A stretch of DNA of 56,799 nt from Candidatus Kaiserbacteria bacterium RIFCSPHIGHO2_02_FULL_49_34 (GTDB lineage: Bacteria; Patescibacteriota; Minisyncoccia; Phycocordibacterales; UBA918), in contig MFLE01000018.1 of NCBI GenBank assembly GCA_001781205.1, positions 1 through 56,799 of the forward strand, read 5' to 3'. A program made the position numbers and the translations under genes. This document shows, one piece after another, positions 38,111 to 46,789 of the stretch (its first letter is position 1; every line of letters starts with the position of its first letter). Below the pieces are notes generated by a model, which did not search any database, was not told the origin of the DNA, and saw nothing but the letters and a program-made list of their open reading frames with translations.

Positions 38111-39841
38111 TTATTCATACATAGAATCCTTAATTGCATATATTTCATTTGCAAACGTCGGCACGAAGAATGTATTTGTCTCAGGATCGTAAGCTGCTTT
38201 GTTGGTGATTCGTTCAGTAAAATGTGACAGTGAAGTAACTTGTCCTGTCTCTGGATTTATTTCATAAAAGTGTCCGCTATTCTGCCCAATGTAGAGTCTG
38301 TCATCAATAATAATCGGACTTGCAAATATTCGCGCAGGAGTTTCATATTTCCATGCTGCTTCTCCCGTATCCCGATGGAAGGCATGTATGCATTTGTCGA
38401 GACCAGTGACAATAACGAGATTCTTATATAACATGGGTGTCGAATATATTCCGAAATATAAGTCATTATATTGCGCGCGGATATGTCCTGTTTTTATATC
38501 GCATACATAGACAGTACTTCTGCCATCATTCTGCTCATTCCCGCCTATACCGCCAAAAATAATACAGCCAGTTTCCTCATCTATGCAGGGTGCATATTTT
38601 ATTTCTAATATAGTCTCATGCTTCCAGAGAAGTTCGCCTGTCTTTGCGTTGAGTACATGTAGGTACTTGTCGTTCGAGCCGCACGCAATAATATTATATT
38701 TTTGCGAGTACGCTGGAGAACCATGTGTGAGGTATTCGCTGCGATATTCCCAGCGTTTTTTCCCCGTATGTACATCAATGGCAGTTACACCACCTTGTTT
38801 CTTGAAAAGTCCGTATTCCATGCCTGAAAATACAAGACCTAGTTTTTCAGAAAAACATGGTGAAGAACCTATCCAGTCCGCCTCCATAAAAATCCACTTT
38901 CGTTTCCCAGTTTCTGCATTCAGAAGGTAGAGATTGCCGTCATATGCACCGAAACATATAAAGGACTCTCCGCGATCATGGACAAGACATGGGGAAGAGA
39001 AAATGAGTTTTTTCTTTGAACCAAACGGCACCAAATGACTCCATTTTTCTTTTCCAGTCAAACTATCAAGGCATGTAAAATGGCCTGAGTCGGTACCAAA
39101 GTAAAGACTCTTGTTGAAGTAAAGTGGTGAAGATTTCGGAATTACATAAAAATAATTCGGCTTCGATCCTTTCCAGTGCCATGCGGTAGTGAAGTTGTTT
39201 GGGGTGAGTCGTGTAGTGATGTTCTTTATGTTGTGAAGGTCGAGCTGTGGTGCGGATTCTTTGATGTAAGGGTTAAGGTCATTAAGATCTAGAATAGAGT
39301 TAATATCTATATTTTTATCAGTGAAATATGAGTAGTGTGTGTGGTCCCGGAAGCGTACAATACTAAAAACTGACGCAATACTGAGGTTGTCGAGAGATGG
39401 TGTCTCCACGCGTAATTTTTCTAGTACCTCTATTTGACGAATAAAGCTATTGCCTGAATTCATGATGTCGTCAACGAGGATTACCTTTTTATTTTGTACC
39501 TCTCCCTCAACCATGGAAAGGAGTCCACGCTTACTACGAGACTTTCTAATATAAAAACCATTCACAGGCATGTTGAGCATCTTGCTCTTCATAACGATTG
39601 CTGCAACTAAAGATATTGCAGCTGTTTCAAGTCCGGCAACTTGAAACGGATACTGATCTGCATATCGTTCAAAAAAATCGGTTGCATAGCAATCAAGTAC
39701 CTCTGGACTTAGTGTTGCTTTTCTCAAATCAATAAGCCAGTGCTTTGGATTCTCATTATCAAGGTCTATCTGCTGTTTATCGGCAGTTGTGATGCATGCA
39801 TTCGCAATCTTTTCAGCAAAAAAAGTTTGTGTTTTGTTCAT
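38111..39841 (-). CDS. Type I phosphoribosyltransferase (PyrE-like) fused to PQQ-like beta-propeller
   Basis: FYIRK and PRPP loop VILVDDIMNSGNS; about 7-8 repeats SSP...G..D...L....TG..KW. Confidence 0.85.
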   Translation of the reverse strand: MNKTQTFFAEKIANACITTADKQQIDLDNENPKHWLIDLRKATLSPEVLDCYATDFFERYADQYPFQVAGLETAAISLVAAIVMKSKMLNMPVNGFYIRKSRSKRGLLSMVEGEVQNKKVILVDDIMNSGNSFIRQIEVLEKLRVETPSLDNLSIASVFSIVRFRDHTHYSYFTDKNIDINSILDLNDLNPYIKESAPQLDLHNIKNITTRLTPNNFTTAWHWKGSKPNYFYVIPKSSPLYFNKSLYFGTDSGHFTCLDSLTGKEKWSHLVPFGSKKKLIFSSPCLVHDRGESFICFGAYDGNLYLLNAETGKRKWIFMEADWIGSSPCFSEKLGLVFSGMEYGLFKKQGGVTAIDVHTGKKRWEYRSEYLTHGSPAYSQKYNIIACGSNDKYLHVLNAKTGELLWKHETILEIKYAPCIDEETGCIIFGGIGGNEQNDGRSTVYVCDIKTGHIRAQYNDLYFGIYSTPMLYKNLVIVTGLDKCIHAFHRDTGEAAWKYETPARIFASPIIIDDRLYIGQNSGHFYEINPETGQVTSLSHFTERITNKAAYDPETNTFFVPTFANEIYAIKDSMYE

Positions 39842-40744: not shown

Positions 40745-41983
40745 TTAAGAAAGGATTTTTTTAATAAGTTCTTCGGCAGTGCCAGATGTTTGTTCGCCTG
40801 AAGCGAGGTGTTTGAGAGCATACACACCTGATGCTATTTCGTCAGATCCGAGGATGAGGGCGAATTTTACCCCGTCGTCTCCAGCGTTACCGAGTTTTTT
40901 ACCGAGTTTACGATCGGTAGCGTCGACGATGGTAGTAATGCCTGTAGTGCGGAAGGTGTTTGCAAGAGCTATAACCTCTGTTGCTGTAGCTTCTTGGAGA
41001 GGAAGGATTGCGAGTGTTGCTGCTGAGTTCAGGGCTTCAGGGAGAAGATTGTGTGTCGTAAGGAAATTCACCATAGAGACATCTCCCATACCGAAGCCGA
41101 TGCCAGTGATAGGTTCGCCACCGAACATTTCGGTGAGGTTGTCGTAACGACCGCCTCCGCCGAGTGCGCGGGAGTTTTCTGGGTTCGTGTCGTAGATTTC
41201 AAAGACGAGACCGGTGTAGTAGTTGAAGCCGCGAACAATAGCAGGGTCGATAATGACATTCGTGAGGCCAAGATTATGGAGCGCTTGTACTGTTTGCGCG
41301 AGACGTGAATCAGCGGGGGGTGTCGGGAGGATAAAGGATGCTCCAATAATTTCTGCTGCCTCCGCATCAAACGCTTCTGCAGTAATTTTATTTTTCTTGT
41401 CGAGAAGCAAAAACATCGCACGCTTCTGCTCATCAGTGAGATTGAGTGAGTCAAAAACAGAATTCACAAAGCCGCGGTCATTAACACGAATCACAAATGT
41501 TTCAAGTGTTGCACCGAAATCTTTAAAGATATTTGCAACATACACGAGCATGTCGATGTCGCAGGCGATGGTGTTGTCACCGAAGACGTCGGCATTGAGC
41601 TGCCAGAATTCGCGCAAGCGTCCACGTTGTGGGCGTTCGTAGCGGTAAAGATTAGGGATAGAGTACCAACGAATAGGGAAGTGTAAATCATGACGCTTGC
41701 CGGCAACCATACGTGCAACGGATGGTGTTAGCTCTGGACGAAGGGTTACTTCGCGGTCACCACGGTCTGTGAACGTGTAGGTTTGCTCGTTCACCATTTC
41801 TTCATTTTCTTGCCCCTTTGCTTTATAGAGAGCAGATGGCTCAAAAATAGACGCACCGAAGCATTCATACCCAAAACGTTCGGCAGTCTTCGCCCATCCA
41901 TCAAAAATATAGCGTTGCACCGCCATCTCCTTCGGGTAAAAGTCCCGCACACCTTTATACGGTTGTGTTGAAAGATATTCCAT
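40745..41983 (-). CDS. hisS: Histidine--tRNA ligase
   Basis: KGVRDF, LRPELT, YRYERPQRGRLREF, VRGFNYYTG, GGGRYD motifs. Confidence 0.96.
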   Translation of the reverse strand: MEYLSTQPYKGVRDFYPKEMAVQRYIFDGWAKTAERFGYECFGASIFEPSALYKAKGQENEEMVNEQTYTFTDRGDREVTLRPELTPSVARMVAGKRHDLHFPIRWYSIPNLYRYERPQRGRLREFWQLNADVFGDNTIACDIDMLVYVANIFKDFGATLETFVIRVNDRGFVNSVFDSLNLTDEQKRAMFLLLDKKNKITAEAFDAEAAEIIGASFILPTPPADSRLAQTVQALHNLGLTNVIIDPAIVRGFNYYTGLVFEIYDTNPENSRALGGGGRYDNLTEMFGGEPITGIGFGMGDVSMVNFLTTHNLLPEALNSAATLAILPLQEATATEVIALANTFRTTGITTIVDATDRKLGKKLGNAGDDGVKFALILGSDEIASGVYALKHLASGEQTSGTAEELIKKILS

Positions 41984-42039
41984 GTCGCTGAGTGTAGCAT
42001 AAAAGTTTTATTTTTTCACATTTTCTGATATGCTCGGGG

Positions 42040-42122
42040 AATGTTCGCTTTTGTGAACTTGTGGCTGATTTCCACACATTATACATGTACCGCTGATATC
42101 GGTACGATCAAAAGAAATTTCT
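42040..42122 (+). promoter_or_regulatory. ileS 5' leader with two tRNA-Ile anticodon-arm mimics
   Basis: TGTGG-CTGATTT-CCACA (42060-42076) and GTACCG-CTGATAT-CGGTAC (42087-42105); extended -10 TGATATGCT at 42026-42034. Confidence 0.65.
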
Positions 42123-45100
42123 ATGAATGAAAATAAAGTAAGCGACGTTGCACGTCGCGAAGAAGAGATGCTCCAGTTTTGGCGTGAGCATGACATCTTT
42201 CAGAAGAGTATTGCAAAGGATGCACCGAACGGGCAGTTCACCTTTTATGATGGGCCACCGTTTGCAACAGGGCTTCCACACTATGGGCACTTGCTCGCGG
42301 GTACTATCAAGGATGCCATTCCACGTTTCTGGACGATGAATGGCTACAGCGTTCCTCGACGTTGGGGATGGGATTGTCATGGTCTTCCCCTTGAGAATCT
42401 CATTGAGAAGAAGCTCGGACTTGCGACAAAGCGCGATATTGAAACCTACGGCGTAAAGAATTTTAACGAAGCAGCTCGCGGTGCGGTTCTTGAGTATGCC
42501 GATGAGTGGCGCAAGATTGTGCCGCGTATGGGGCGCTTTGTGGATATGGAGGATGACTATCGCACCATGGATGCGAGCTACAGTGAAAGTGTATGGCATG
42601 TGTTCAGCGAGCTCCATAAAAAAGGACTCGTGTACGAAGGCTTTAAGTCAATGCACCTCTGTCCGCGTTGTGGGACAACACTTTCAAACTTTGAAGTGAA
42701 TCAAGGCTACCGCGACATCAAAGATATTTCGGTGTATGTAAAATTGCCACTTGTTGAAAGTCCTGATACCTCACTTTTGGTGTGGACGACGACACCGTGG
42801 ACATTGCCTGGCAACATGGCTGCGGCAATTCACCGTGAGGCACTGTATGTTGCAGTTTCAATTACGGTAGAAGAAAAGACAGAGAGTGTAATTGTTGCGA
42901 AGGCTCGATTCGAATCGCTCTTTGCTGGTGCACAAAACGCAACCATTGTTCGTGAATTTCCAGGTAGTGAACTCGAAGGGAAGGCATACATGCCGCCGTT
43001 CGATTATTTCAAGAATCAAGAGATTCCGAATATCGAAAACGCGTGGAAGATTTGGCATGCAGACTATGTTGATGTCGAAGGAGCTGGAACTGGTGCAGTA
43101 CATATCGCGCCAGCATATGGTGAAGACGATATGCAGCTTGGCAAAGCGAATAATATTCCGCTCGTGCACCACGTTGACCCCGATGGTCGCTTCAAAGCGC
43201 TTGTTACGGATTGGGCAGGATATATTGTAAAGCCGAAAGATGATGCTGATGCGGAGGTTTCGCACCTTGATACGGATATTGAAATCGTGCGTGCGCTTGC
43301 GCAGAAAGGAGTGCTCTTTAAGAAAGAGAATATCACGCACTCGTATCCACATTGTTGGCGCTGTGAGACGCCGCTCCTTAATTACGCGACAACGTCATGG
43401 TTTGTAGAGGTAACGAAGATTAAGGATCAGCTTGTTGCAGCAAACAATACCGTGAACTGGGTGCCAGAACATGTTGGTGTCGGACGCTTTGGCAAATGGC
43501 TCGAAGGCGCACGAGACTGGGCGGTTTCTCGTCAGCGCTATTGGGGTGCACCGTTGCCTATTTGGCGCAATCCAGAAACAAAAGAATGGAAAGTGTTCGG
43601 CTCATTCAAAGAGCTTCTTGCGCAGGTGCCACAGAGTGGTTCGCAGTACTTCCTTATGCGTCATGGTGAAGCGGAAGCGAACACAAAGAATGTGACGCAG
43701 ACAAAAATTGAGGTTGCAAATCCACTTACCAAAAACGGTCGAAAGGTGGCGCAGGCCAGCGCTTCATCACTTAAGGATAAAGGCATTGACCTCATCATTG
43801 CGTCACCTTTTGAGCGTACGAAGGAAACCGCGCAGATTGTTGCTCGTGAACTTGGACTGGATGGCACTTCGATTGTCTATGACGACCGCATTGCGGAAAT
43901 TAAAGTCGGCGAGTTTGATGGAAAGTCTATTGACGAGTACCATGCGTTCCTTAATGCATCGGGTGATTGGTATACTGCAGCTCCCGAGGAAGGTGAGTCA
44001 CATCAAGCAGTACGTCGCCGTGTCGGAGCGTTCTTGCATGATATTGATACAAAATATGCAGGGAAGCGTGTGCTGATTGTTTCGCACAACTCCCCGCTTA
44101 ATGTACTTCGTGCGATGTTGCACGAAGACGGCGCGCTTCCTGAAGTGTTTGATCATACACATGCTGGACGAACATTTACCCATGGTGAGATGCTCGAAGG
44201 AACATTCACGAAGTATCCGCACAACGACGATTATGTGCTGGATGTGCATCGTCCGTATATCGATGACCTCGACGTGCGTGATGAAAACGGTACACGCCTC
44301 GAACGTGTACCAGACGTCTTTGACTGCTGGTTTGAATCAGGTTCGATGCCCTACGGACAACAGCATTATCCGTTTGAGAACACTGACCGTTTTGATGCGA
44401 CAACAGGACTCGGCTTCCCCGCAGACTTCATTGCGGAAGGGCTTGACCAAACCCGCGGCTGGTTCTACTCACTCATCGTGCTCGGTACGGCACTCTTTGG
44501 CAAGTCGCCATTCAAACATGTGGTTGTGAATGGTCTCGTGCTCGCGGAAGATGGACGTAAAATGTCGAAGTCGCTTCGAAATTATCCCGACCCAATGGAA
44601 CTTGTTGATAGACTTGGTGCCGACGCAATGCGGCTCTATCTCCTTACCTCGCCAATTGTGCGCGGCGAAGACTTGAACTTCTCAGAGAAGGGTGTTATGG
44701 AAATTCAGCGCAAGACTATCGGGCGTCTGCATAATGTGCTCCAGATGTACGAAATGTACACTGATGGCACGAAGACATCTTCGCAATCATCGCAGGTGCT
44801 CGACCGCTGGATGGTCGCGGTGCTCTCGGATGCTATTCGTACTTCGACCGAAGCATACAAGACCTATGAGCTCGACAAAGCGACTCGTCCGATTCTTGAT
44901 GTGATTGACGACCTTTCGGTCTGGTATCTTCGTCGTTCACGCGACCGACTTAAGGGCGATGACCTTGCCGACAAACAGGCAGCGCTCGCTACCTTGCGAT
45001 ATACACTCAAAACGACTGCGCTTCTTATGGCTCCCGTTATGCCATTTTACGCAGAATACCTCTATCAAAAAGTTCGTGATGAGAGCGACCCAGAAAGTGT

Positions 45101-45581
45101 CCACCTAGATAGCTGGCCAGTTGAGACCGATGTTGATGCAGACGTGCTTACGAGCATGAAGCTTACTCGCGAATGGGTAACAAAAGCTCTCGAAGCGCGC
45201 ACGAAGGCAGGTATGAAGCTTCGTCAGCCAGTTGCAACAATCAAGCTTCCTGTGGAGCTTAGTGGTGCATGTGATGAAATCTTCAAAGACGAGCTTAATG
45301 TGAAGAATCTTGAAGTTGACGCAGCACTTACGGGAGCATGGATTGATGAGGTAATCACGCCAGAGCTTAAACGCGAAGGGGAAGTACGTGACCTTACTCG
45401 TCAGATTCAAGATGCTCGCAAAGACGCAGGACTTGAGCCGAAGGATAGAATTGTGCTCACACTCAATCCGTCACTCGAAGAGACCGTTATGCCGCATAAA
45501 GATGAACTTATGAAAACCGTTGGCGCTGATAGTATTGTATATGATACAGCAGTTACAACGTTTACGCTTAAAACACCATAA
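42123..45581 (+). CDS. ileS: Isoleucine--tRNA ligase with inserted histidine-phosphatase domain
   Basis: DGPPFATGLPHYGH, GWDCHGLP, WTTTPWTLP, SRQRYWG, DQTRGWF, KMSKS; insert containing RHGE and IVSH. Confidence 0.95.
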   Translation: MNENKVSDVARREEEMLQFWREHDIFQKSIAKDAPNGQFTFYDGPPFATGLPHYGHLLAGTIKDAIPRFWTMNGYSVPRRWGWDCHGLPLENLIEKKLGLATKRDIETYGVKNFNEAARGAVLEYADEWRKIVPRMGRFVDMEDDYRTMDASYSESVWHVFSELHKKGLVYEGFKSMHLCPRCGTTLSNFEVNQGYRDIKDISVYVKLPLVESPDTSLLVWTTTPWTLPGNMAAAIHREALYVAVSITVEEKTESVIVAKARFESLFAGAQNATIVREFPGSELEGKAYMPPFDYFKNQEIPNIENAWKIWHADYVDVEGAGTGAVHIAPAYGEDDMQLGKANNIPLVHHVDPDGRFKALVTDWAGYIVKPKDDADAEVSHLDTDIEIVRALAQKGVLFKKENITHSYPHCWRCETPLLNYATTSWFVEVTKIKDQLVAANNTVNWVPEHVGVGRFGKWLEGARDWAVSRQRYWGAPLPIWRNPETKEWKVFGSFKELLAQVPQSGSQYFLMRHGEAEANTKNVTQTKIEVANPLTKNGRKVAQASASSLKDKGIDLIIASPFERTKETAQIVARELGLDGTSIVYDDRIAEIKVGEFDGKSIDEYHAFLNASGDWYTAAPEEGESHQAVRRRVGAFLHDIDTKYAGKRVLIVSHNSPLNVLRAMLHEDGALPEVFDHTHAGRTFTHGEMLEGTFTKYPHNDDYVLDVHRPYIDDLDVRDENGTRLERVPDVFDCWFESGSMPYGQQHYPFENTDRFDATTGLGFPADFIAEGLDQTRGWFYSLIVLGTALFGKSPFKHVVVNGLVLAEDGRKMSKSLRNYPDPMELVDRLGADAMRLYLLTSPIVRGEDLNFSEKGVMEIQRKTIGRLHNVLQMYEMYTDGTKTSSQSSQVLDRWMVAVLSDAIRTSTEAYKTYELDKATRPILDVIDDLSVWYLRRSRDRLKGDDLADKQAALATLRYTLKTTALLMAPVMPFYAEYLYQKVRDESDPESVHLDSWPVETDVDADVLTSMKLTREWVTKALEARTKAGMKLRQPVATIKLPVELSGACDEIFKDELNVKNLEVDAALTGAWIDEVITPELKREGEVRDLTRQIQDARKDAGLEPKDRIVLTLNPSLEETVMPHKDELMKTVGADSIVYDTAVTTFTLKTP

Positions 45582-45670
45582 TTGGTGTTTTGTGTTATTT
45601 ATGCTTTGACGTCCCGGATGGATCCAGACGTCAAAGCATATTTTCTCAACCCTGTGGTATACTTTTCGTA

Positions 45671-46789
45671 ATGCAAAAGAAAAAGGGTTTTGTCGATCAA
45701 CTCAAGGAAATGTTTCATATTGAGTCACCACTACCACGTGATGTTGTCATGGGTGTTGATTTTGGTAGCGCAACACTCAAGGTGGTGCAACTTTCAAAAA
45801 AGCAATCGATTCCAACACTCGATACCTATGGTGAAGTTTCGCTCGCGCCGTACCAGGGGGAATCCGAAGGAAAGGTTGTGCCGCTCAACATTGATGCACA
45901 TACGAAGGCGCTTCGCGATGTTGTGCGTGATGCGGGTATTGTGGCGCAGAGCGCTGCGATTGCGCTTCCGTATGGCGCAACGTTCACGGTTGTGCTCACC
46001 GTTGACTCAACTGACCCTACCGAAATAACCGCACGTGTCCCTATTCAAATCAAGAACCTCATCCCCGTCCGCCTGCAAGACGTTACCATTGATTGGTTTC
46101 CATTTGTGCACGATGAAGCAGCAAAAAAGACAACACTCATTGCGGTGGCGGTGCATAATCATACACTTGCACAATTGCGCGAAGTAGTGACACGTGCGGG
46201 GTTTTCAATTCTCACTACCGAGCTTGAATTTTTTTCCACTATTCGTAGCGTTGTGGAGCAGGCGGATTCGAAAAGCTCCTTCGACTTCGCTCAGGGTAAA
46301 TCGCCGCAGGCAGCGTCCATGATTGTGCTTGATCTTGGTGCAGGGAGCGGCAAAGTATATTTTGTACATGAAGGGAAGCTCGTTGGCGTGCATAGTATTG
46401 CATCGCTTGGTGGTGAGGGGGTTACCAAGCGCATTGCAGGAGCGTCGAATGCGGCATTTGAAACCATCGAAGCGCAAAAGCGCGAAGGTGCCGTGTCTCT
46501 TCCGGATGAAATCATTACTCAAGCAGCGCGTGAAGTATCTTCACTTATAAGTGCACATGTCCATGCGTCGACTCTTTCTTCTGCACCGTGTGTTGTGGTT
46601 GGCGGAGGCGCTCGCATGCATGATCTTACGACCGCGTTTCGTACTGCATTTGCACGCACTGTGACACTTGGTGAGCCGTTTCATCATGTTGCGTATCCGC
46701 AGATTCTTAAGGATACACTTACACGAACAGGGGGCGCATATGCACCGTCTGTCGCGGTAGCGTTTGCTGCGGTCGGACTATCAAAATAA
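45671..46789 (+). CDS. pilM: Type IV pilus assembly protein PilM-like
   Basis: GVDFGSATLKVVQL, VLDLGAG, VVGGGA actin-fold motifs. Confidence 0.8.
   Translation: MQKKKGFVDQLKEMFHIESPLPRDVVMGVDFGSATLKVVQLSKKQSIPTLDTYGEVSLAPYQGESEGKVVPLNIDAHTKALRDVVRDAGIVAQSAAIALPYGATFTVVLTVDSTDPTEITARVPIQIKNLIPVRLQDVTIDWFPFVHDEAAKKTTLIAVAVHNHTLAQLREVVTRAGFSILTTELEFFSTIRSVVEQADSKSSFDFAQGKSPQAASMIVLDLGAGSGKVYFVHEGKLVGVHSIASLGGEGVTKRIAGASNAAFETIEAQKREGAVSLPDEIITQAAREVSSLISAHVHASTLSSAPCVVVGGGARMHDLTTAFRTAFARTVTLGEPFHHVAYPQILKDTLTRTGGAYAPSVAVAFAAVGLSK
46277..46300 (+). repeat. REP-like motif in frame inside pilM (SFDFAQGK)
   Basis: TCCTTCGACTTCGCTCAGGGTAAA, 24 nt, located in a loop before the VLDLG strand. Confidence 0.55.

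What the first reader, a model, noticed from the sequence alone, without database searches (positions are those of the whole stretch)
42040..42122. ileS leader carries two tRNA-Ile anticodon-arm mimics: candidate thrS-style autoregulatory operator
Seen: unlike most genes here, ileS has an ~80-nt leader (extended -10 TGATATGCT at 42026-42034). It contains two perfect stems, TGTGG-[CTGATTT]-CCACA and GTACCG-[CTGATAT]-CGGTAC. The stems are unrelated in sequence, yet both close 7-nt loops reading CU-GAU-NN, which places the Ile anticodon GAU at positions 34-36 as in tRNA-Ile (CUGAUAA). CTTTTG (42048-53) can pair with CAAAAG (42109-14) to enclose both, ending 8 nt before the ATG. Established: E. 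coli thrS mRNA uses two anticodon-mimic hairpins to bind dimeric ThrRS and repress its own translation, whereas ileS in Firmicutes and Actinobacteria is T-box regulated. Inference: this IleRS, a class I enzyme normally monomeric, may feedback-regulate itself through tRNA mimicry. I do not know of this being described for ileS or CPR.
Basis: partly seen in the sequence, partly recalled or inferred. Interest (0 to 1): 0.85.

Follow-up and report, generated by a model that had tools for sequence, protein, structure and literature searches.

The report
tRNA-Ile anticodon-arm mimics before ileS
The messenger RNA for isoleucyl-tRNA synthetase in a group of tiny-genome (CPR) bacteria begins with one or two conserved hairpins that copy the anticodon loop of tRNA-Ile, most likely so that the enzyme can bind its own message and limit its own synthesis.

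Summary
Two 7-nt-loop hairpins (42060-42076 and 42087-42105), both with loops starting CUGAU, lie between an extended -10 promoter and the ileS ATG.

- Conservation: the same pair precedes ileS in 26 of 37 genomes of the family, and a single hairpin in one more. A single-hairpin form occurs in a second family.
- Structure: the stems covary (hairpin 1: 6 of 6 pairs with double changes, 94.7% paired). RNAalifold recovers both hairpins de novo.
- Specificity: a covariance model finds one strong match per genome, at ileS wherever checked. Rfam has no match.
- Mimicry: the clade's tRNA-Ile(GAU) anticodon loop is CUGAUAC. The leader loops are CUGAUAC or CUGAUAU.
- Position: hairpin 1 sits at the predicted 5' end. 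Hairpin 2 ends 0-17 nt before the start codon, or contains it.

Best reading (about 0.6): a tRNA-mimic translational operator bound by IleRS. It works like the E. coli thrS operator but is not homologous to it. Binding and repression are untested.

The parts
42026..42034 (+). Extended -10 promoter TGATATGCT of ileS. The predicted transcription start is about 7 nt downstream (about 42041), giving a leader of about 82 nt.
   Evidence: sequence. TGnTAnnnT occurs upstream of hairpin 1 in 48 of 50 two-hairpin leaders. In this genome the same motif ends 6-9 nt before candidate start codons in 91 cases, against about 2 per nt as background. That supports both its role as a promoter and the -10-to-start distance.
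42043..42058 (+). Small genus-specific hairpin GUUCGC-UUUU-GUGAAC at the predicted 5' end.
   Evidence: Present in the MFE fold. Kept in the same-genus genome. Absent in other genera, where the -10 abuts hairpin 1.
42060..42076 (+). Hairpin 1: UGUGG-CUGAUUU-CCACA, an anticodon-arm-like stem-loop with GAU at positions 34-36.
   Evidence: The homologous hairpin in 26 aligned leaders has 6 of 6 pairs with double changes and 94.7% of cells paired.
42077..42086 (+). Single-stranded A/U-rich spacer between the hairpins (CAUUAUACAU).
   Evidence: Loop-to-loop spacing is 22-28 nt in 36 of 50 leaders, and the spacers are mostly UUAUUA-like.
42087..42105 (+). Hairpin 2: GUACCG-CUGAUAU-CGGUAC, the second anticodon-arm mimic. 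It ends 16-17 nt before the ATG.
   Evidence: The same-genus genome has GCACGG-CUGAUAU-CUGUGC: four stem substitutions, all pair-preserving (one gives a G-U pair), with the loop unchanged.
42123..45581 (+). ileS, encoding a type-2 (eukaryote-like) isoleucyl-tRNA synthetase of 1152 aa. It is the gene controlled and the proposed binder.
   Evidence: Pfam tRNA-synt_1, Anticodon_1 and DUF5915. NCBIfam TIGR00392, 880 bits. Best PDB matches are type-2/cytoplasmic IleRS at 655-697 bits, against 258-312 bits for type 1.
41991..41999 (-). Context: the extended -10 (TGCTACACT on the minus strand) of divergent hisS (40745-41983). It ends 7 nt before the hisS ATG, so hisS is probably leaderless and does not use the hairpin region.

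Best explanation
The ileS mRNA of this CPR/Patescibacteria lineage carries a conserved cis-regulatory RNA. It consists of one or two stem-loops that mimic the anticodon arm of tRNA-Ile(GAU).

Proposed mechanism, as in the E. coli thrS operator: free IleRS recognises the CUGAUAY loops through its anticodon-binding region. This stabilises hairpin 2, which is weak on its own and abuts or contains the start codon, so ribosomes are kept off the initiation site. Uncharged tRNA-Ile competes for the enzyme and relieves the repression.

Shown here:
- The hairpins are real RNA structures on the ileS sense strand.
- They occur once per genome, at ileS.
- Their loops equal the clade's tRNA-Ile anticodon loop.
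- Hairpin 1 lies at the predicted 5' end, and hairpin 2 lies at the start codon.

Inferred, not shown: that IleRS is the binder, that binding represses translation, and that tRNA-Ile competes.
For: 1. Conservation.
- 60 of 61 genomes were examined (own plus relatives; G038 was not fetched). 26 have two CTGAT-loop hairpins upstream of ileS and 1 has one. All 27 belong to the 37 genomes of the family.
- The pooled set of 60 unique ileS leaders holds 50 two-hairpin and 3 one-hairpin forms.

2. Covariation.
- Hairpin 1: 94.7% of cells paired, 6 of 6 pairs with double changes, 60 compensatory cells, score 1.076 against 0.297 for shuffles (0 of 500 reach it), slid controls at most 0.38.
- Model-based alignment of 51 matches: 93.3% paired, 11 of 12 pairs with double changes, 122 compensatory cells.
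- RNAalifold predicts exactly the two hairpins de novo, with 11 of 12 pairs compensated.
- G-U pairs are frequent, and the orientation relative to ileS is constant. This points to RNA on the sense strand.

3. Specificity.
- Model R1 against 61 family genomes gave 39 places with E<1e-3 in 38 genomes. 36 were checked by coordinates or tblastn and all are at ileS; 3 were not checked. No second strong site occurs in any genome except G065, which has two contigs.
- G000 has a single match.
- 13 other aaRS genes of G000 show no cognate mimic.

4. Mimicry.
- tRNA-Ile(GAU) genes of the family read CUGAUAC in 15 of 19 checked with ARAGORN.
- G000's own copy, cut by a contig end, also reads CTGATAC.
- The 103 leader loops are CUGAUAU (64), CUGAUAC (35) or CUGAUUU (4). 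Position 38 is always a pyrimidine, and position 37 is A in 99.

5. Position.
- An extended -10 ends 1-9 nt before hairpin 1 in 45 of 48 leaders that have the motif.
- Hairpin 2 ends 0-17 nt before the first usable start in 45 of 50 two-hairpin leaders.
- In the second family (5 of 12 genomes), and likewise in the single-hairpin locus L168, the AUG in the hairpin's 5' stem is the ileS start codon.
- Hairpin 2 is marginally stable alone (median -0.9 kcal/mol). That fits an element needing a ligand.

6. Enzyme type. The enzyme is a type-2 (eukaryote-like) IleRS. [quoted passage not shown] An unmodified RNA mimic is therefore plausible.

7. Precedent. ThrRS, yeast AspRS and several yeast aaRSs bind anticodon-like structures in their own mRNAs (passages of PMC9976931 and PMC6542539).
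Against: - No binding, expression or transcript-end data exist. No RNA run holds the stretch, so this is a blank rather than evidence.
- IleRS is expected to be a monomer, so a two-hairpin operator lacks the symmetric logic of ThrRS.
- Only the loop mimics the tRNA. The stems and the closing pair differ: mostly U-A in the leaders against A-U in the tRNA. The E. coli minor determinant C29-G41 (PMC9976931, section 11) has no counterpart.
- Three leader-bearing genomes (G002, G021, G071) yielded only a tRNA-Ile with CUGAUAA, yet their leader loops keep Y38 where read (G002, G021). The match at position 38 is therefore not universal.
- In the window, hairpin 1 has U37.
- In 5 of the 50 two-hairpin leaders, 28-138 nt separate hairpin 2 from the first usable in-frame start, 110-140 nt in several of them. 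Simple occlusion of the start codon is not obvious there.
- The hairpins used for the covariation counts were picked by requiring CTGAT plus at least 4 pairs. This inflates pairing of the inner four pairs. Searches are the controls for that bias.
- Related genomes are not independent observations.
Confidence: 0.6

Rival explanations
1. The hairpins are a real ileS-specific RNA element, but the ligand is another factor that reads ANN-type anticodon loops or this loop sequence. Candidates are a tRNA-modification enzyme (the t6A37 machinery reads U36-A37) or an unknown RNA-binding protein. Control would then report something other than the IleRS level.
For: Structure, specificity and loop identity do not say who binds. 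Two adjacent sites are easier to reconcile with a small or dimeric binder than with a 1152-aa monomer.
Against: The element occurs only at ileS. The loop carries the full Ile anticodon GAU, not just U36-A37. A general ANN-loop reader would not explain why only ileS is controlled.
Confidence: 0.15
2. The hairpins act without a specific ligand. Hairpin 1 would be a 5'-terminal stabiliser against 5'-end-dependent decay, and hairpin 2 a built-in brake on initiation. The loop sequence would be conserved for folding or another unknown reason.
For: Hairpin 1 sits at the predicted 5' end and is moderately stable (median -4.8 kcal/mol). This genome seems to use mostly leaderless mRNAs, so a leader may need protection.
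Against: It does not explain why 103 loops keep CUGAU-A/U-Y while the stems change freely. It does not explain why the loop equals the tRNA-Ile loop, or why only ileS has it. Hairpin 2 is too weak alone (median -0.9 kcal/mol) to act as a brake.
Confidence: 0.1
3. Leader-peptide sensing. The AUG in the 5' stem of hairpin 2 would open a short ORF (MSDIH...) containing the Ile codon AUA. Ribosome pausing there would report Ile-tRNA supply.
For: The AUG is present in 51 of 53 hairpin-2 copies. In 6 leaders it gives MSD(I/T)Hx-stop, with Ile at the fourth codon in 5 of them. The genome has a tRNA-Ile(UAU).
Against: Of the 51, the AUG is out of frame with ileS in 25, in frame and open in 20, and in frame with a stop in 6, so no uORF length or end is conserved. 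In the 12 CUGAUAC copies the codon is ACA (Thr). The window's genus has no AUG in hairpin 2. No terminator or alternative pairing follows. Hairpin 1 is non-coding and has the same loop.
Confidence: 0.04
4. DNA-level control. The inverted repeats would be operators for a transcription factor, or for IleRS itself, as recalled for AlaRS and alaS in E. coli. Alternatively they would be tandem promoter-like TGnTA elements.
For: The repeats lie just downstream of the promoter. The loop start TGATA resembles the clade's extended -10 start.
Against: The half-site sequences are not conserved but covary. G-U pairs, which would be mismatches in DNA, are common. The conserved part is the asymmetric spacer, not the arms. 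The loops lack the final T of TAnnnT. Orientation relative to ileS is fixed whatever gene lies upstream.
Confidence: 0.03

Closest known systems
E. coli thrS translational operator (ThrRS autoregulation by tRNA-Thr anticodon-arm mimicry)
   Same: Both lie in the 5' leader of the synthetase's own mRNA. Both have two stem-loops with 7-nt loops carrying the cognate anticodon, separated by a single-stranded A/U-rich stretch, with the proximal hairpin next to the initiation site. The thrS description comes from passages of PMC9976931. The split ribosome-binding-site detail is recalled.
   Different: There is no sequence or family relationship, and no Rfam match. The enzyme is a class I, presumably monomeric, type-2 IleRS rather than a class II dimer. 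No Shine-Dalgarno sequence is involved, because this genome shows no SD enrichment. Hairpin 1 is at the very 5' end. Single-hairpin forms exist in which the start codon is inside the stem. Binding is untested.
Yeast aaRS self-mRNA binding at anticodon-like elements (AspRS; HisRS, MetRS, GluRS, ValRS, GlnRS)
   Same: The synthetase binds an anticodon-like hairpin in its own mRNA and represses translation, and uncharged tRNA relieves this. This includes class I enzymes (passages of PMC6542539 and PMC9976931).
   Different: Those systems are eukaryotic, and the HisRS element lies inside the coding region. IleRS is not among the enzymes listed in the passages read. No covariation-supported, lineage-wide RNA motif was described there.
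T-box riboswitch leaders of ileS (Firmicutes, Actinobacteria)
   Same: Both are leaders of ileS that use tRNA-Ile anticodon logic to adjust IleRS synthesis to tRNA charging.
   Different: A T-box displays the codon (specifier), pairs with the tRNA directly, and has Stem I plus a discriminator or antiterminator. Here the leader displays the anticodon, is about 50-80 nt long, and has no T-box sequence. Rfam T-box models do not match.

Membership tests
aaRS tRNA-mimic translational operator (thrS type, defined functionally) | Lies in the leader of the synthetase's own mRNA, next to or overlapping the initiation site | tested here: met
   Hairpin 2 ends 0-17 nt before the start in 45 of 50 two-hairpin leaders, or contains the start codon. 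The promoter lies upstream of hairpin 1.
aaRS tRNA-mimic translational operator (thrS type, defined functionally) | Stem-loop with a 7-nt loop carrying the cognate anticodon at positions 34-36, resembling the cognate tRNA's anticodon loop | tested here: met
   The loops are CUGAUAY. The family's tRNA-Ile(GAU) loop is CUGAUAC in 15 of 19 genes. The stems do not resemble the tRNA stem.
aaRS tRNA-mimic translational operator (thrS type, defined functionally) | Bound by the cognate synthetase in an anticodon-dependent way, in competition with the tRNA | not testable with these tools
   No RNA-protein prediction or assay was available.
aaRS tRNA-mimic translational operator (thrS type, defined functionally) | Binding represses translation initiation | not testable with these tools
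   No expression data. No RNA run holds the stretch.
Any curated Rfam family (including T-box RF00230) | Match to the family covariance model | tested here: not met
   No match in the hairpin region (42060-42105) at E<=10 in window 41500-42700; the one weak hit in the leader, eiav_FSE at 42037-42058 on the minus strand (E 4.8, 13 bits against a gathering score of 40), lies upstream of the hairpins. No match at all at E<=1 in six relatives' loci.
T-box riboswitch | Specifier codon in Stem I plus a T-box/antiterminator or sequestrator that pairs with the tRNA acceptor end | tested here: not met
   The leader displays the anticodon GAU, not an Ile codon in a specifier loop. It is only about 50-80 nt long and holds two simple hairpins.
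Leader-peptide attenuator | Conserved short ORF rich in cognate codons, coupled to alternative structures or a terminator | tested here: not met
   The frame and end of the hairpin-2 ORF are not conserved (25 out of frame, 20 open, 6 stopped, of 51). The Ile codon is lost in the CUGAUAC copies. No terminator follows.
DNA palindromic operator (alaS-like autorepression; recalled) | Conserved half-site sequence recognised on double-stranded DNA | tested here: not met
   The arms covary instead of being conserved, G-U pairs are present, and the conserved part is the asymmetric 7-nt centre.

The most novel reading that the evidence does not exclude
This would be the first bacterial class I aminoacyl-tRNA synthetase that regulates its own translation by tRNA mimicry. 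It would have arisen in a lineage where most mRNAs are leaderless. In the simplest form, the first five codons of a leaderless ileS mRNA (AUG UCU GAU AUA CAU) fold into a copy of the tRNA-Ile anticodon arm that hides the start codon. In the window's family that hairpin moved into a true 5' leader and was duplicated to give a two-site operator. Position 38 (a pyrimidine, as in the clade's own tRNA-Ile) would be part of what this type-2 IleRS reads.
Probability: 0.45. Interest if true: 0.85.

Novelty: new variant of a known kind. Interest (0 to 1): 0.78.

Why it matters
Autoregulation of a synthetase by an mRNA copy of its tRNA has one textbook bacterial case, thrS in E. coli. In the review passages read (PMC9976931), IleRS is not listed among enzymes that bind their own mRNA.

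This work adds a covariation-supported RNA motif that is absent from Rfam, specific to ileS, and found in at least two families of uncultured CPR bacteria. It would extend the principle to a class I, type-2 enzyme and to organisms with almost no described gene regulation.

It also gives a directly testable system: a roughly 50-nt RNA plus one recombinant protein. The single-hairpin form suggests how translation of a leaderless mRNA can be controlled.

Finally, the motif can serve as a marker for annotating ileS starts and promoters in these genomes.

Tried and rejected
- Energy alone: the leader's fold z-score is -1.51, which is not significant. The case rests on comparative data.
- Enclosing helix CTTTTG/CAAAAG: not in the MFE fold and kept only within the genus. 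Set aside.
- N-terminal coding constraint as the cause of hairpin-2 conservation: rejected. The hairpin AUG is out of frame or followed by a stop in 31 of 51 leaders.
- Loop-loop kissing: only AUAU is self-complementary, and it is lost in CUGAUAC loops (23 of 50 hairpin-1 copies). Rejected.
- Missing Shine-Dalgarno as a special feature of ileS: rejected. SD-like 4-mers are not enriched before starts in this genome (57 of 600 against 58 of 600 background).
- Other aaRS genes: 13 genes found with five Pfam families have no cognate anticodon hairpin in -160..+40. Ala, Phe, Arg, Cys, Gly and class 1g Met families were not searched.
- Collection-wide pattern scan: it stopped at 120 rows. 22 are ileS leaders, and the rest are chance 15-mer matches in unrelated genomes. 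It therefore gives no total count. One hit in the order scan (G177, L241) is not at ileS.
- Expression: no RNA holder was listed for the stretch.
- Dimerisation of the His_Phos_1 insert (complex prediction, two copies, alignment A5): no support, score 0.00. This counts neither for nor against binding.
- Literature. Seven searches were answered, and none listed a description of an ileS anticodon-mimic leader or of a histidine-phosphatase insert in IleRS. I read passages of PMC9976931 (plus its section 11) and of PMC6542539, and only listings or abstracts of the others. Supplements are closed. Subscription journals are largely not in the library.
- Not done: a scan at class or phylum level, an IleRS tree to separate inheritance from transfer, and R-scape.

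Full report
**What is in the window.**
The 139-nt gap between divergent hisS (40745-41983, minus strand) and ileS (42123-45581) was read, and the genes were named. It contains, in order:
- an extended -10, TGATATGCT (42026-34);
- a small local hairpin (42043-58);
- hairpin 1, TGTGG-CTGATTT-CCACA (42060-76);
- a 10-nt A/U-rich spacer;
- hairpin 2, GTACCG-CTGATAT-CGGTAC (42087-42105);
- 17 nt, then the ATG.

Both hairpins appear in the RNA minimum-free-energy fold. The leader's z-score is only -1.51. Rfam (4227 families, E<=10) has no match in the hairpin region; the only weak hit in the leader (eiav_FSE, 42037-42058 on the minus strand, E 4.8) lies upstream of the hairpins. hisS has its own extended -10 ending 7 nt before its ATG. 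It is therefore probably leaderless and does not need the hairpin region.

**Chance.**
- In the whole genome (828 kb, 26 contigs), 2398 perfect hairpins with 7-nt loops include 5 with CTGAT loops, and two of those are this pair.
- With G-U pairs allowed there are 15,080 hairpins. Thirteen same-strand pairs lie 17-80 nt apart and share the first five loop bases. Only the ileS pair and a pair of tRNA T-arm hairpins (listed on both strands) lie outside long ORFs.

**Conservation.**
A protein search placed ileS in 60 relatives. I read the upstream DNA of 60 of the 61 genomes; G038's gene starts too near a contig end.
- Within the window's family, 27 of 37 genomes carry CTGAT-loop hairpins before ileS: 26 have two and 1 has one.
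- The 10 family genomes without them belong to three genera (g4 3 of 3, g8 2 of 2, g9 5 of 5).
- None of the 23 loci from other families sampled in that call had them.
- As a control for my selection rule (CTGAT followed by a 7-nt loop closed by at least 4 pairs), 50 such hairpins fall in 9,900 nt of leader in the 30 first loci. Only 7 fall in the other 224,022 nt, both strands counted.

**Structure.**
- Hairpin 1, aligned over 26 leaders: 94.7% of cells pair, all 6 pairs show double changes, and there are 60 compensatory cells. The covariation score is 1.076 against 0.297 in shuffles (0 of 500 reach it) and at most 0.38 when partners are slid.
- Hairpin 2 is mostly (U)UAUGU-CUGAUAU-ACAUA(A). 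It still shows 5 pairs with double changes.
- The window's genus has replaced the whole hairpin-2 stem with GC-rich sequences while keeping the loop. The two genomes of that genus differ by four stem substitutions, all pair-preserving.
- RNAalifold, run without my structure, predicts exactly the two hairpins, with 11 of 12 pairs compensated.
- An alignment of 51 model matches gives 93.3% pairing and 122 compensatory cells. That alignment leans towards the model.
- G-U pairs and a fixed orientation relative to ileS indicate an RNA structure on the sense strand.

**Specificity.**
A covariance model of the pair (R1) was searched over 61 genomes of the family.
- It gave 39 places with E<1e-3 in 38 genomes, one per genome except G065, which has two contigs.
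- 25 of them coincide with the ileS coordinates. A further 11, in genomes outside, were confirmed by tblastn, as were three loci already counted among the 25. Three were not checked (G065:C35, G078, G066).
- Matches elsewhere all have E>0.1.
- Genera g4 and g9 have none. g8 has only weak matches away from ileS.
- Thirteen other aaRS genes of the genome have no hairpin with a cognate anticodon.

**Mimicry.**
A pattern search for tRNA-Ile(GAU) genes gave 37 matches, of which 30 read CTGATAC. ARAGORN confirmed tRNA-Ile(GAU) in 19 of 20 loci.
- 15 have the anticodon loop CUGAUAC, and 4 have CUGAUAA.
- The window genome's own copy is cut by the end of contig C22 and also reads CTGATAC.
- Its tRNA-Ile(UAU) has CUUAUAC.
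- The 103 leader loops are CUGAUAU (64), CUGAUAC (35) and CUGAUUU (4). Position 38, which my selection left free, is always a pyrimidine.
- The stems do not resemble the tRNA stem.
- G002, G021 and G071 yielded only a CUGAUAA tRNA, and the leader loops read in G002 and G021 have Y38. This is a point against strict co-variation of mimic and tRNA.

**Placement.**
- TGnTAnnnT is found upstream of hairpin 1 in 48 of 50 two-hairpin leaders. It ends 1-9 nt before the stem in 45 of them. It ends 25-28 nt before in the window's genus and in L025.
- In this genome the same motif ends 6-9 nt before candidate start codons in 91 cases (47 at exactly 6 nt), against about 2 per nt as background.
- SD-like words are not enriched before starts. 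It also puts the transcription start at the foot of hairpin 1.
- Hairpin 2 ends 0-17 nt before the first usable start codon in 45 of 50 two-hairpin leaders. In five leaders, 28-138 nt intervene before the first usable in-frame start, 110-140 nt in several of them.
- Hairpin 2 alone is barely stable (median -0.9 kcal/mol; -6.8 in the window). Hairpin 1 has a median of -4.8.

**A simpler form.**
- A scan of 401 genomes from 118 families of the order found the hairpin-2 sequence in 5 of the 6 genomes of the window's family drawn in that sample, in two genomes of family f109, and once elsewhere at a site that is not ileS. The reversed control pattern gave 0 matches.
- Within f109, 5 of 12 genomes (two genera) have a single hairpin whose AUG is the ileS start codon (MSDIH...). 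In three of them a TATAAT-like -10 ends 7-10 nt upstream.
22 of its 120 loci are ileS leaders, and Candidatus Saccharibacteria is the commonest label among those whose labels were displayed.

**Mechanism.**
The enzyme is a type-2, eukaryote-like IleRS. According to passages of PMC9976931:
- anticodon positions are strong Ile determinants;
- ThrRS, yeast AspRS and several yeast aaRSs bind anticodon-like structures in their own mRNAs.

PMC6542539 shows this for HisRS.

The most economical reading is that IleRS binds the mimic or mimics and blocks initiation, and that tRNA-Ile competes. I put this at about 0.6. That the element is a genuine ileS-specific structured RNA I put at about 0.95.

Rivals are another binder, a ligand-free stabiliser, a leader peptide, and a DNA operator. 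Each is weighed in its own section of the report.

**Comparison and novelty.**
The element works like the thrS operator in four respects: own leader, two anticodon-like hairpins, a single-stranded linker, and a proximal hairpin at the initiation site. It is unrelated in sequence. It differs in serving a class I enzyme, lacking an SD, starting at the 5' end, and having a one-hairpin form that contains the start codon.

It is not a T-box and not an attenuator.

The seven answered literature searches and two Rfam searches found no description of it. Supplements and most subscription journals could not be searched.

Noticed in passing
window 43635-44222 (IleRS aa about 505-700): A histidine-phosphatase domain (Pfam His_Phos_1, E 2e-34) is inserted between the two halves of the IleRS catalytic core. 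The catalytic R-H-G, R, E and H residues are invariant in 30 aligned relatives. The insert is present in all 29 relatives checked, including those without the leader. It is less conserved (30-79% identity) than the enzyme core. No paper was found for it.
   Followed up: partly
genome contig C17:26426-26590 (outside the window): A tRNA-Ile(UAU) gene (anticodon loop CUUAUAC) is followed about 30 nt later by a remnant resembling a tRNA 3' half: a second T-arm plus an acceptor 3' strand. The UAU isoacceptor suggests AUA is read without lysidine.
   Followed up: no
whole genome G000; example in window 41991-41999 (-) before hisS: Extended -10 motifs (TGnTAnnnT) end exactly 6-9 nt before candidate start codons in 91 cases, and Shine-Dalgarno-like words are not enriched. 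This organism appears to use mainly leaderless mRNAs.
   Followed up: partly
genome contig C22:15191-15221 (-): The genome's tRNA-Ile(GAU) gene is cut by the end of the contig, which is why ARAGORN did not list it. The remaining part reads ..TCGA-CTGATAC-TCGAA...
   Followed up: yes
loci L062, L063, L082, L130, L176, L218; also L010, L027, L029, L169: Some ileS leaders carry an extra 110-160 nt, either between hairpin 2 and the start codon or between the two hairpins. These inserts were not analysed. They could be further structures or mobile insertions.
   Followed up: no
window 45590-46789 and 38111-39841: Just downstream of ileS lies a PilM-like type IV pilus assembly gene. Further upstream of hisS, past another minus-strand ORF, lies a gene combining a phosphoribosyltransferase domain with a PQQ-like beta-propeller.
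   Followed up: no
locus L021 (G025) and L048 (G058): Runs of N (withheld or masked bases) lie upstream of ileS in these relatives. For G025, absence of the hairpins rests on about 110 visible nt only.
   Followed up: no
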